IMG/VR virus record: IMGVR_UViG_3300032116_000047
Strand: one strand, 5' to 3'
Length of the DNA stretch: 64,000 nt
From: an uncultured virus (IMG/VR IMGVR_UViG_3300032116_000047)
Taxonomy: Duplodnaviria; Heunggongvirae; Uroviricota; Caudoviricetes
The position numbers were made by a program, and so were the translations under genes. Positions within the stretch are counted from its first letter, which is position 1, and each line of letters opens with the position of its first letter. Below are positions 5,811-36,757 of this stretch, piece by piece. Below the pieces are notes generated by a model, which was not told where the DNA came from, did not search any database, and was given only the letters and a program-made list of their open reading frames with translations.

Positions 5811-5844
5811 AAATAAAAAAACCCAGTCTTTTGAGACTGGGTTA
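5811..5844 (-). terminator. Intrinsic terminator (attenuator) upstream of tRNA array 2
   Basis: AACCCAGTCT-caaa-AGACTGGGTT followed by a U-tract. Confidence 0.9.
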
Positions 5845-5867
5845 AATAAATATGTAGAGTCAAAATC

Positions 5868-5948
5868 TTACATAACATAACTCAGTCTCTCGACTAAACG
5901 CCCCGCGCCTGTCGCTATAACTCCTGATATGTATGTGAAATTTTTCAT
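5868..5948 (-). CDS. Leader peptide of tRNA array 2 (26 aa, MKNFTYISGVIATGAGRLVERLSYVM)
   Basis: Codons 7-16 are ATA tca GGA gtt ATA GCG aca GGC GCG GGG; 5878-5889 matches the terminator 5' arm at 11/12. Confidence 0.8.
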   Translation of the reverse strand: MKNFTYISGVIATGAGRLVERLSYVM

Positions 5949-6003
5949 TGTTTCTATTTTATGTTATTATATATTAAAAGTTTTACTTTTCCCTTTAATT
6001 TTG

Positions 6004-6086: not shown

Positions 6087-6093
6087 ATATTTG

Positions 6094-6170
6094 AACTACC
6101 CATAGGACTCGAACCCATAACCCTCGGGCCGTGTGACCCGTGTGCAAACCAATTTACACCATAAGTAGTT
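6094..6170 (-). tRNA. tRNA-like gene, anticodon undetermined (6-nt loop CACACG); possible pseudogene
   Basis: D-arm, cgggt/gcccg stem and GGGTTCGAGTCC T-arm present; loop irregular. Confidence 0.5.
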
Positions 6171-6265
6171 AATCAAGTAGATATATCAGAAATTACTGGT
6201 ACCAAATCTCACTGCGATATGTGATACATCTTCTTGTTAGAGTCGGTTAATTACTCCGACTTTTG

Positions 6266-6337
6266 TAGTCCCACGGAGGATCGAACTCCGATTTCTAGGA
6301 TGAAAACCTAACGTCCTAACCATTAGACGATGGGACC
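6266..6337 (-). tRNA. tRNA-Glu (UUC)
   Basis: tagg-TTTTCAT-ccta; acceptor ggtccca/tgggact. Confidence 0.9.
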
Positions 6338-6344
6338 ATATTTT

Positions 6345-6479
6345 TTATTCATATCCTAATATGAATATTTCGTATAAAACTTCATCATTAAATGTAGAAA
6401 AACTACAAGGGTCAAATTGTTCAAAGTTTTTACACCAAGCTTTGAATACTTTAGACTTTATAGAAGGAACTCTTTTCAT
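6345..6479 (-). CDS. Small hypothetical protein (likely start MKRVPS)
   Basis: Follows the TTTG-N20-TATCTTTG promoter; the upstream extension in the ORF track overlaps the terminator. Confidence 0.45.
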   Translation of the reverse strand: MKRVPSIKSKVFKAWCKNFEQFDPCSFSTFNDEVLYEIFILGYE

Positions 6480-6498: not shown

Positions 6499-6530
6499 CA
6501 AAGATAAGGTAACTTTTCAAATCTACCAAA
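6499..6530 (-). promoter_or_regulatory. Bacteroidota-type promoter TTTG-N20-TATCTTTG downstream of the array 3 attenuator
   Basis: Consensus match. Confidence 0.7.
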
Positions 6531-6550
6531 TCTTTTTAAAATATTTTTAA

Positions 6551-6586
6551 ATAAAAAAACCCAGACCGAAATCGGACTGGGTTTGT
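6551..6586 (-). terminator. Intrinsic terminator (attenuator) upstream of tRNA array 3
   Basis: AAACCCAGtCCG-attt-CGGtCTGGGTTT followed by a U-tract. Confidence 0.85.
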
Positions 6587-6603
6587 TTAAAGTAATCAAA
6601 TCG

Positions 6604-6675
6604 TTACAACATACAAACTCGTCCGACTGGGTTTAAACCCTCGGCTTCGTAATAATATGTTGCTAATCCTTTCAT
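6604..6675 (-). CDS. Leader peptide of tRNA array 3 (23 aa, MKGLATYYYEAEGLNPVGRVCML)
   Basis: TAT TAT TAC GAA gcc GAG run matches downstream tRNA-Tyr and tRNA-Glu; 6613-6626 is complementary to the terminator 5' arm. Confidence 0.8.
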   Translation of the reverse strand: MKGLATYYYEAEGLNPVGRVCML

Positions 6676-6693
6676 ACTTTTTAATTTTTTTAG

Positions 6694-6766
6694 TAGCGGG
6701 GGCCGGACTCGAACCAGCGACCTCTAGGTTATGAGCCTAGCGAGCTACCAACTACTCCACCCCGCA
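6694..6766 (-). tRNA. Initiator tRNA-fMet (CAU)
   Basis: Unpaired U1:U72; ctagg-CTCATAA-cctag; lies upstream of leader 3, so outside attenuation. Confidence 0.85.
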
Positions 6767-6839
6767 ATATTTTTATTGTATGTGTATATATAAAAAAGTT
6801 TTATTCTCTTTTAGAAAATTATTAAATAATATATACTTT

Positions 6840-35680: not shown

Positions 35681-36757
35681 ATGATAAACACAATTGGAAA
35701 CCCAGAATTAGCTTTTTTGTTTGAAGAAGATTCATTCAAGAAAAAAAAGAGAACAGAGAAAGAGATTGAACTTTCAAAACTTTACGAAAAAACCTTCGTC
35801 GAGATGCCAGTTACTGGACAGGTAGTAAAAGCCGAATACTCCGGTAAAACAACATCACACTATGTTTTTTCTGTAACTGGTTACAAAGATGATGTTAGAG
35901 TAGATGATAGAGTTTCTGAGTCAAAGTATCTTAGAAATTCTACTATTGGAGATATTGTAGATGTTCTCATAATTGATGTAAATCACGATGATTTCTTTAT
36001 CAAAGGGTCTATTTCAACACTCTATGAAAACTTAGCACATGAGAGCCTTAAATCCTTAAAAGAAGGGGAATCAGTTACAGCCTACATTAAATCTTTAAAT
36101 CCTGCTGGATATGATGTGGAGATTAGAAATGGTGGTGTTACACTTCCTGGATTTATGCCAAATACACTAGCTGGTATCAACAAATTGTATGATGTGAATT
36201 CTATCGTTGGTCAGACTTTTGAAGTAATGATTGAATCTTATGCTGAACAAGAAGGAACGTATATAGTTTCTAGAAGAAAATACCTTCAAACTTTAATTCC
36301 ACAAGCTATTAAGGAACTTAATTATGACATCTCTTATAAAGGTCACGTAACAGGAACAACACCTTTTGGAGTATTTGTTGAGTTCAATGAATGTTTAACA
36401 GGAATGATACATAAAGCAAATGTTAATCCTGATTGGCAAGACAGACTTTCTGAAATTAAGCCTGGTTTTGAAATTGAGTTCTATATAAAAGAAATTGTAA
36501 GAGAAAAAATTATTCTTACACAAATTCTTAGAGAAACACTTTGGGATAATATCAAAAATGGTCAAACATTAAATGGTGTTGTTAAAGAAGTTAAACAATT
36601 TGGAACTTTAGTTAATTTAGATGATGAGACGGTTGGTCTTATACATACTTCAGAAATGGAGAAATTGAAATCAAAGTTTCAATCAGAACAAGAAATCAAA
36701 GTGAAAGTTCTTTCTGTAGATAGAGCTTCGCGAAAAATCTTCCTTACTCTAGCCTAA
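35681..36757 (+). CDS. Ribosomal protein S1-like multi-S1-domain protein
   Basis: Tandem S1 domains: PFGVFVEF...GMIH, QFGTLVNL...GLIHTSEM, KVKVLSVD...KIFLT. Confidence 0.85.
   Translation: MINTIGNPELAFLFEEDSFKKKKRTEKEIELSKLYEKTFVEMPVTGQVVKAEYSGKTTSHYVFSVTGYKDDVRVDDRVSESKYLRNSTIGDIVDVLIIDVNHDDFFIKGSISTLYENLAHESLKSLKEGESVTAYIKSLNPAGYDVEIRNGGVTLPGFMPNTLAGINKLYDVNSIVGQTFEVMIESYAEQEGTYIVSRRKYLQTLIPQAIKELNYDISYKGHVTGTTPFGVFVEFNECLTGMIHKANVNPDWQDRLSEIKPGFEIEFYIKEIVREKIILTQILRETLWDNIKNGQTLNGVVKEVKQFGTLVNLDDETVGLIHTSEMEKLKSKFQSEQEIKVKVLSVDRASRKIFLTLA

What the first reader, a model, noticed from the sequence alone, without database searches (positions are those of the whole stretch)
6499..6800. Attenuator 3: YYYEAE leader; initiator tRNA sits upstream of the switch and a bypass promoter downstream
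SEEN: the order is TATATA promoter, tRNA-fMet, leader MKGLATYYYEAEGLNPVGRVCML, terminator, TTTG-N20-TATCTTTG promoter, small ORF, tRNA-Glu, odd tRNA, tRNA-Tyr. TCGGACGAGTTTGT (6613-6626) pairs imperfectly with ACAAACCCAGTCCGA. INFERENCE: fMet-tRNA, which an elongation stall cannot sense, is made unconditionally. Tyr and Glu tRNAs would be conditional from the upstream promoter but also available from the host-type promoter. That internal promoter weakens a strict-control model for this array.
Basis: partly seen in the sequence, partly recalled or inferred. Interest (0 to 1): 0.75.

Follow-up and report, generated by a model that had tools for sequence, protein, structure and literature searches.

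The report
Tyr/Glu attenuator before phage tRNA genes
A giant phage places a tiny test gene rich in tyrosine and glutamate codons, wired to a switchable transcription stop, in front of its tyrosine and glutamate tRNA genes, so it probably tops these tRNAs up when ribosomes read those codons slowly, while a second promoter that belongs to the next tRNA block gives a basal supply.

Summary
Window 6811-5820 (minus strand) holds a TATATA motif, initiator-type tRNA, a 23-codon YYYEAE leader with 1:2, 2:3 and 3:4 hairpins, a Bacteroidota sigma-A promoter, then tRNA-Glu, a tRNA-like RNA and tRNA-Tyr. A search on the hairpins alone found 97 phage-type loci; 80 of 89 readable ones have Tyr or Glu as first downstream tRNA, and Y/E codons end where a ribosome would start to cover the antiterminator. 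The 'bypass' promoter is better read as the host-type promoter of the next attenuated unit (Ile/Gly/Ala): present in 24 of 26 loci with that separate unit, 0 of 13 where the units are fused. Most relatives keep a separate, strictly gated Tyr/Glu set behind the terminator; this lineage has lost it, so here the attenuator can only top up the ungated pair. The 'odd tRNA' is half of an unannotated ~170-nt RNA. No expression data. Ten literature searches showed no leader-peptide control of tRNA genes. This scan has found such attenuators before on other DNA, including this element in another genome.

The parts
6785..6811 (-). TATATA-type promoter motif (AAAGAG..AAAACTTTTT-TATATATA), probably phage-specific; inferred, not mapped
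   Evidence: TATATA within 60 nt upstream of the first CAT tRNA in 52 of 54 distinct relatives; upstream of 14 of 49 window ORFs against 1.1% of in-gene windows
6693..6766 (-). tRNA(CAT), initiator type (U1:U72 mismatch, A11:U24; only 2 of the 3 G-C anticodon-stem pairs), upstream of the switch
6604..6675 (-). Leader ORF, 23 aa, MKGLATYYYEAEGLNPVGRVCML; sensor codons Y7-E12 at 6657-6640; A at -3; starts 17 nt after the tRNA
6655..6663 (-). Segment 1; pairs with 6614-6606 (1:2 protector helix)
   Evidence: cognate duplex beats shuffled partner in 62 of 66 distinct loci
6613..6626 (-). Segment 2 (antiterminator strand); pairs with 6586-6572
6552..6586 (-). Intrinsic terminator (segments 3 and 4, one U-U mismatch, U run)
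   Evidence: -17.1 kcal/mol, z -5.55
6499..6530 (-). Bacteroidota sigma-A type promoter TTTG-N20-TATCTTTG; best read as the host-type promoter of the Glu-Tyr-leader B unit
6345..6479 (-). 44-aa ORF, lineage-specific insertion, not part of the conserved design
   Evidence: among the loci held only the identical locus L042 has it; no Pfam family; no Atlas hit
6265..6337 (-). tRNA-Glu(TTC), of the sequence type found behind the internal promoter in relatives
6091..6261 (-). Conserved ~170-nt RNA: hairpin with near-invariant loop, long stem, then tRNA-like domain (6170-6092) with a hypervariable loop in place of the anticodon
6003..6086 (-). tRNA-Tyr(GTA), of the type found behind the internal promoter in relatives
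5820..5996 (-). Next unit: TATATA motif (5996-5968), leader B MKNFTYISGVIATGAG... (5948-5868) and terminator (5843-5820) in front of tRNA-Ile(TAT), Ala, Gly; no terminator between 6499 and leader B

Best explanation
This is a ribosome-mediated transcription attenuator whose output is tRNA. RNA polymerase starting at the TATATA motif makes initiator tRNA, then the leader. If Tyr and Glu codons are read quickly the ribosome covers segment 2, the 3:4 hairpin forms and transcription stops. If it stalls on Y7-E12, segment 2 captures the 5' arm and polymerase runs into tRNA-Glu and tRNA-Tyr (and on into leader B). Initiator tRNA lies outside because a leader cannot report its shortage: without initiation 1:2 and 3:4 form. 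The internal sigma-A promoter is the host-type promoter of the next unit (Glu-Tyr, leader B, Ile/Ala/Gly) and gives the Glu/Tyr pair a basal supply. The ancestral layout had a separate, strictly gated Tyr/Glu set between terminator and this promoter; the window's lineage lost that set and the sigma-A promoter in front of the leader, and kept the switch as a demand-driven top-up. Shown: sequence, conservation, computed folds, gene order. Inferred: translation of the leader, promoter use and timing, conditional read-through, and that the signal is tRNA loss rather than amino-acid shortage.
For: Search on hairpins only: 80 of 89 loci with 200 nt downstream have Tyr or Glu as first tRNA within 300 nt; 84 of 92 with 100 nt upstream have a leader with at least 3 Y/E in the last 7 sensor codons. 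Loci found without the pattern agree: 8 of 10 protein-anchored loci (one lacks the array, one is cut) and two GenBank genomes. Y/E fill 70-97% of codon positions -33, -30, -27, -24 and -18 from segment 2 (20% at -21) and at most 8% from -15 onward, where the modelled antiterminator drops from 0.87 to 0.40 to 0.06. Free column of the 2:3 helix: A-U 55, G-C 6, G-U 5, A-C 0 of 66. Where the Ile/Gly/Ala array is fused to this one, the leader gains I/A/G (57% of sensor codons in 11 loci against 27% in 25). In the window the true pairing of four leaders with four arrays ranks first of 24. Internal promoter 24 of 26 against 0 of 13, never a terminator between it and leader B. Window Glu and Tyr are of the promoter-driven types: Glu(TTC) loops end AA in 24 of 25 gated copies, AT/AC in 29 of 30 promoter-driven ones; 19 of 20 promoter-driven and 0 of 21 gated Tyr share the window's 5' end. 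In the window clade Y7-Y9, E10, E12 are invariant (one synonymous change) while A11 varies A/V/S.
Against: No transcript, read-through or translation data: four runs gave only short contigs of relatives. In equilibrium folds with both arms the terminator is lost only for free 5' ends 6639-6633 (stalls at about Y9-A11); Y7, Y8 and E12 need kinetic trapping. With no ribosome the antiterminator still forms with mean probability 0.70 (0.40 in the window), so the 1:2 protector is not dominant in the model, and 1:2 duplexes are not clearly family-specific. The loci are related and partly near-copies, so counts overstate independence; the fused arrays come mostly from one leader family. The window clade's leader sits on a long branch (0.6 changes per column). 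L012, L015 and L081 have I/A/G-rich leaders despite a separate leader B; L027 and L081 have leader B without the promoter; L031 keeps the upstream promoter with only a cut Tyr remnant.
Confidence: 0.72

Rival explanations
1. In this lineage the switch is a relic: the hairpin simply ends the initiator-tRNA transcript and all Glu/Tyr tRNA comes from the internal promoter.
For: Gated set and upstream sigma-A promoter are both gone; U-U mismatch in the terminator; long branch to the window clade; deletion intermediates L017 and L031 show ongoing decay.
Against: All 7 distinct loci of this layout keep an open leader with YYYE-x-E; the window clade has a stronger antiterminator (-12.5 to -15.7 against a mean of -9.0 kcal/mol) reached through G-U intermediates; the leader keeps A at -3 and a 17-23 nt gap after the tRNA.
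Confidence: 0.13
2. The switch is real but senses free tyrosine/glutamate or general slowing of translation, not loss of specific tRNAs.
For: Classical attenuators sense amino-acid shortage through uncharged tRNA (established knowledge); a leader cannot tell uncharged from missing tRNA.
Against: More tRNA does not cure lack of amino acid (inference). Codon choice follows anticodons: leader B uses ATA before tRNA-Ile(TAT), leader A uses ATT, CGC stands before tRNA-Arg(ACG), and C leaders use GAG 94: GAA 39 against 147: 603 in 19 window genes.
Confidence: 0.1
3. The internal promoter was gained or moved as a purpose-built bypass of this attenuator.
For: Every complete array without gated tRNAs (4 of 4) has the promoter right behind the terminator and none before the leader, which looks like a move.
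Against: 14 of 37 complete arrays have both promoters at once; in L012, L020 and the GenBank record LR745206.1 the promoter stands directly before leader B with no Glu/Tyr between; the Glu behind it is the same type in both layouts.
Confidence: 0.05

Closest known systems
Leader-peptide transcription attenuators of amino-acid operons (trpL, hisL, pheL, leuL; multivalent thrL and ilvL; pheST)
   Same: Short leader with clustered cognate codons, 1:2 / 2:3 / 3:4 hairpins, U-tract terminator, stall window ending where the ribosome would cover segment 2; two amino acids sensed as in thrL (recalled). Predicted in a Bacteroidota host for amino-acid operons (PMC9723704, passage read).
   Different: Output is tRNA genes of a phage, not enzymes; arrays are split among several codon-matched leaders; units are nested, with ungated tRNAs in the 5' part of each transcript.
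Phage tRNA supplementation against tRNA-destroying defences (T5/SP15 tRNA-Tyr against retron-Eco7 PtuAB, tRNA-Lys against PrrC and PARIS)
   Same: Phage tRNA-Tyr restores infection when host tRNA-Tyr is depleted and the rescue depends on promoter strength (PMC11555353, passages read; PMC10264068, passages; PMC11464382, listing only).
   Different: There a strong promoter is described, with no attenuator ('attenuat' 0 times in the main text); here supply appears to be feedback-controlled. No such defence was tested in this phage's host.
T-box riboswitches
   Same: Antitermination tied to tRNA status.
   Different: T-boxes bind uncharged tRNA directly and need no translated leader (recalled); no Rfam T-box match here.
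Huge Bacteroidetes phages of more than 634 kb (Mahaphage clade, PMC7162821)
   Same: Nearest GenBank relatives are LR745206.1 (634,780 nt; sigma factor 81% identical) and LR756502.1 (642,428 nt; 70%), which carry the same Y/E leader and terminator. Placing them in that clade rests on their size only.
   Different: The paper lists tRNA sets but its main text does not mention attenuation; its supplements were not read.

Membership tests
Leader-peptide transcription attenuator | Short ORF with a usable start upstream of the controlled genes | tested here: met
   23 codons; A at -3 in 56 of 66 distinct leaders, the Bacteroidetes determinant in PMC6847099; translation itself not shown
Leader-peptide transcription attenuator | Clustered codons cognate to what is controlled | tested here: met
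Leader-peptide transcription attenuator | Mutually exclusive antiterminator (2:3) and intrinsic terminator (3:4) with U tract | tested here: met
   computed folds and pair counts; five core bases were fixed by the search pattern
Leader-peptide transcription attenuator | 1:2 protector/pause hairpin | tested here: inconclusive
   folds in the window (z -3.15) and beats shuffles in 62 of 66, but does not dominate ribosome-free RNA in the model
Leader-peptide transcription attenuator | Stall codons placed so that a stalled ribosome leaves segment 2 free | tested here: met
   with an assumed 13-nt footprint from the A-site codon
Leader-peptide transcription attenuator | Controlled genes are amino-acid biosynthesis, transport or synthetase genes | tested here: not met
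   controlled genes are tRNAs; hence a variant, not a member of the described families
Leader-peptide transcription attenuator | Read-through rises on stalling | not testable with these tools
   public runs gave contigs only
Bacteroidota sigma-A promoter | -33 TTTG and -7 TAHHTTTG boxes at consensus spacing | tested here: met
   TTTG-N20-TATCTTTG at 6530-6499; consensus from PMC6847099 passages; start site not mapped
Initiator tRNA (fMet) | Unpaired 1:72 and purine 11 : pyrimidine 24 (features recalled) | tested here: met
   U1:U72 and A11:U24 read from the sequence; 1:72 mismatch in 44 of 52, 8 not scored or other types
Initiator tRNA (fMet) | Three consecutive G-C pairs in the anticodon stem (recalled) | tested here: not met
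   AGG/CCT, two of three, in the window and 23 of 52; GGG/CCC in 11 of 52 including close relative L016
T-box riboswitch | Stem I with specifier loop and T-box bulge | tested here: not met
   no Rfam match at gathering score or at E up to 5
Decoding tRNA (for the 'odd tRNA') | Seven-base anticodon loop with a constant anticodon | tested here: not met
   loop length and sequence vary freely in 17 aligned copies while the stems covary

The most novel reading that the evidence does not exclude
Giant Bacteroidota phages run their tRNA genes as a nested, two-tier supply chain: each host-type promoter makes a few ungated tRNAs (initiator, one Glu, one Tyr) and then a codon-matched test gene that opens a reserve of sequence-divergent tRNAs only when that codon set is read slowly. 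The leaders are thus sensors of tRNA-destroying host defences, leader content is rewritten when arrays fuse, and the reserve copies carry different anticodon loops to survive the nuclease that triggered them.
Probability: 0.4. Interest if true: 0.9.

Novelty: new variant of a known kind. Interest (0 to 1): 0.74.

Why it matters
Why phages carry tRNAs is a long-standing question. If tRNA genes are switched on by slow decoding of their own codons, the phage treats them as a demand-driven reserve, which favours replenishment after tRNA loss over static codon compensation and turns the question into a reporter assay. The leaders would also list which tRNAs are under attack in Bacteroidota, and which (initiator, one Glu/Tyr pair) the phage always supplies. 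This locus is a natural control: it shows what is kept when the gated genes are lost.

Tried and rejected
No whole genome is held. Public RNA runs: one search, best share 0.24; four runs laid were contigs of relatives and cannot show starts, ends or strand; one 192-nt contig covers 6529-6715 with 6 differences but is not shown to be transcribed. The hairpin pattern in bacterial genomes gave 5 hits, none with a called leader or Tyr/Glu tRNA, so no host counterpart was found at that stringency. Idea that promoter plus 44-aa ORF is one inserted cassette: rejected, close relatives keep the promoter without the ORF. Idea that upstream and internal promoters exclude each other: rejected, 14 of 37 have both. 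Several origins of the window's layout: likely (starred branches force at least 2 changes) but one clade is not rejected, p-AU 0.08. Odd tRNA as amber suppressor or split tmRNA: rejected, the loop is not constant and there is no G3-U70 or Rfam match. A first generic terminator finder found none and was replaced. The sigma-70 scan does not apply to this promoter type and missed this terminator because of its U-U mismatch.

Full report
Setting. The window is part of a large AT-rich phage genome: 21 tRNAs by ARAGORN, a sigma-70 family factor, SmpB, S1-domain protein, NAD ligase. The sigma factor's best GenBank matches are LR745206.1 (634,780 nt, 81%) and LR756502.1 (642,428 nt, 70%). Al-Shayeb et al. 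(PMC7162821, passages read, supplements not) state that their five genomes over 634 kb fall in the Mahaphage clade with predicted Bacteroidetes hosts; I place these two records there by size only. The Bacteroidota sigma-A consensus TTTG / TAHHTTTG (PMC6847099, passages) occurs 10 times in the window against 2.3 in shuffles.

Observation. The terminator, the 2:3 antiterminator and a 1:2 helix each fold better than all 200 shuffles. In a model with a 13-nt ribosome footprint and the 3' arm not yet made, the antiterminator holds the 5' arm with probability 0.83-0.86 for A-site codons 2-13, 0.42 at codon 14 and at most 0.08 later. In equilibrium folds with both arms the terminator is lost only for free 5' ends 6639-6633, so stalls at Y7, Y8 and E12 would need kinetic trapping.

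The other arrays of the window. Four tRNA arrays each follow a leader and terminator. Sensor-zone residues that match the array's tRNAs: A 19 of 19, B 6 of 14, C 5 of 11, D 12 of 15; the true pairing ranks first of 24 permutations (array sets include Met, Ile(TAT), Ser from relaxed ARAGORN calls and Cys read by eye). The match reaches codon level: ATA before Ile(TAT), ATT in leader A, CGC before Arg(ACG). A second, non-initiator-type CAT tRNA lies inside array A, whose leader has internal Met codons.

Relatives. A protein-anchored search gave 10 loci, 8 with this array, all 8 with CAT tRNA, Y/E leader and terminator. A pattern holding only the hairpin arms and five bases of segment 2 gave 12 viral, 85 metagenome and 5 genome hits. 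Of the 97 viral and metagenome loci, 80 of 89 with 200 nt downstream have Tyr (43) or Glu (37) as first named tRNA within 300 nt (unassigned calls and one spurious Thr call skipped), and 84 of 92 with 100 nt upstream have at least 3 Y/E among the last 7 sensor codons. These counts include near-copies; L042 is identical to the window and is not independent. After dropping loci without a called leader and the unrelated L044 type, 66 distinct leader-terminator sequences remain. Y/E are confined to A-site offsets -33 to -18 from segment 2 (apart from 23% at -45) and vanish from -15 on, the boundary of the modelled switch; the one free column of the 2:3 core is A-U 55, G-C 6, G-U 5, A-C 0. Both GenBank genomes, which the pattern would miss, carry such leaders (MNTITNIASYESYYEEG..., MNRFTNIETIGYTGYEGAY...). 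In 11 loci the Ile/Gly/Ala array is fused to this one without leader B, and the leader then has 57% I/A/G in its sensor zone against 27% in 25 loci with a separate leader B; most of the 11 share one leader family, and L012, L015, L081 are exceptions.

Initiator tRNA. A CAT-tRNA motif lies upstream of the leader in 60 of 63 distinct loci, behind TATATA in 52 of 54. The window's copy has the 1:72 mismatch and A11:U24 but two of three G-C anticodon pairs (features recalled). Its place outside the gate fits the logic that lack of initiation favours termination (inference). A sigma-A -7 box precedes it in 28 of 56 relatives but not in the window, so here it depends on the TATATA motif, which is enriched before genes (14 of 49 ORFs against 1.1%) and is probably phage-specific; its timing is not shown.

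The internal promoter. Among 37 complete arrays: 14 have a sigma-A promoter before the leader, gated tRNAs and an internal promoter; 13 have the first two only; 3 gated tRNAs and internal promoter; 3 gated tRNAs only; 4, including the window's copy, have no gated tRNA and the promoter 11-25 nt behind the terminator. L031, dropped as a duplicate leader, keeps the upstream promoter with only a cut Tyr remnant, and L017 has a cut Glu. The tRNAs on the two sides are different sequence types, and the window's Glu and Tyr are those of the promoter-driven module. A tree of the neighbouring 120-aa gene nests the reduced layout in a clade (100/99) with full-layout members, all outside rows keeping gated tRNAs where seen (40 rows, midpoint root); the leader tree needs at least two changes but does not reject one clade (p-AU 0.08). 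The promoter is present between terminator and leader B in 24 of 26 loci that have leader B and in 0 of 13 fused loci, with no terminator between it and leader B, and in L012, L020 and LR745206.1 it stands directly before leader B. The Fisher value (1e-8) overstates the case because the loci are related. The simplest reading is that it is the host-type promoter of unit B, with Glu and Tyr carried ungated in the 5' part of that transcript, just as fMet is in unit C. The 44-aa ORF is an insertion found only in L042 among the loci held.

Is the switch still used here? All 7 distinct reduced-layout leaders are open with YYYE-x-E; in the window clade the five Y/E codons show one synonymous and no other change while neighbours vary, and the antiterminator is stronger than in the other 59. 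Against this, the clade's branch is long and the terminator has a U-U mismatch. I judge retuning more likely than decay.

The odd tRNA. It is the 3' half of a ~170-nt element found in tRNA arrays of other phages, after Glu, Ala, Gly, Lys, Thr or Tyr genes (15 of 18 hits for the hairpin show the whole element; 12 of 12 for the tRNA-like part have the upstream half). In 17 aligned copies 18 of 47 predicted pairs show changes on both sides, while the 'anticodon' loop varies freely. No Rfam family covers it. Function untested; a decoy or a processing signal for the upstream RNA are guesses.

Literature. Ten searches of the held library; the six aimed at attenuation of tRNA genes listed no paper on it; only listings and abstract starts were seen for most hits. 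PMC2965389 has no mention of tRNA genes or phage (term search). PMC11555353 (passages) shows promoter-dependent rescue by phage tRNA-Tyr after host tRNA-Tyr depletion, without attenuation. PMC9723704 (passage) reports clues for leader-peptide attenuation in a flavobacterium. Subscription journals are mostly outside the library.

Earlier scan notes. 77 findings in at least 71 genomes describe such attenuators, and e1-5675175 describes this element in another genome with a basal-plus-top-up reading; I had reached that reading before seeing it. These are unchecked notes, not support. The assignment of the promoter to unit B, the lost gated set and the 170-nt RNA were not in the lines shown.

Verdict. 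A real, conserved attenuator-type element controlling phage tRNA genes; works like a trp/thr-type attenuator but is not a member of a described family because its output is tRNA. New variant of a known kind; interest 0.74; mechanism confidence 0.72, with no experimental evidence.

Noticed in passing
window 6261-6091 (-); L115-L144: Unannotated ~170-nt RNA of phage tRNA arrays: hairpin with near-invariant GAGTAATTA loop, long stem, and a tRNA-like domain without a fixed anticodon; covarying stems in 17 copies; no Rfam family; no earlier scan note by sequence.
   Followed up: partly
window 1221-60 (-), 5948-5500 (-), 17423-16430 (-): Three further codon-matched leader/terminator units (R/N/V/I/T/L/M; I/A/G; F/K/H/W/R/S). 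Relatives have a fifth, Ser/Arg leader (SKSSSSRSS) where the window has it fused into leader D.
   Followed up: partly
L017, L031, L088 downstream of the terminator: Truncated tRNA genes: gated Glu cut at the anticodon loop (L017), gated Tyr cut (L031), promoter-driven Tyr cut after 12 bases (L072, L075, L088); deletion intermediates.
   Followed up: partly
L003 9010-8925, L004 4465-4375 and many relatives: First gene behind the terminator is often a Tyr-like tRNA-shaped sequence with an enlarged, variable anticodon arm that ARAGORN misses.
   Followed up: no
window 6635-6628: The leader repeats AAACCCAG of the terminator's 5' arm, giving a second helix that can take the 3' arm; seen in the window, L016 and L085.
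   Followed up: partly
L003 9338-9260, L004 4780-4700, L005 5915-5830: Conserved structured-looking stretch between tRNA-fMet and the sigma-A promoter of the leader in several full-layout relatives.
   Followed up: no
window 20848-20414, 35681-36757, 24287-23688, 18292-17867: Phage-encoded SmpB, S1-domain protein, sigma-70 family factor and YqeY-like protein; no tmRNA called in the window.
   Followed up: no
window 5545-5500 (-): tRNA-like remnant with a T-arm after tRNA-Gly, not called by ARAGORN or Rfam.
   Followed up: no
L122 220-281, L127 10-71: Rfam freshwater-1 RNA inside tRNA arrays of other phages, near the 170-nt element.
   Followed up: no
L005, L006, L049: HNH/GIY-YIG-like endonuclease ORFs inserted within the Tyr/Glu arrays (family names judged by eye, not scanned).
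   Followed up: no
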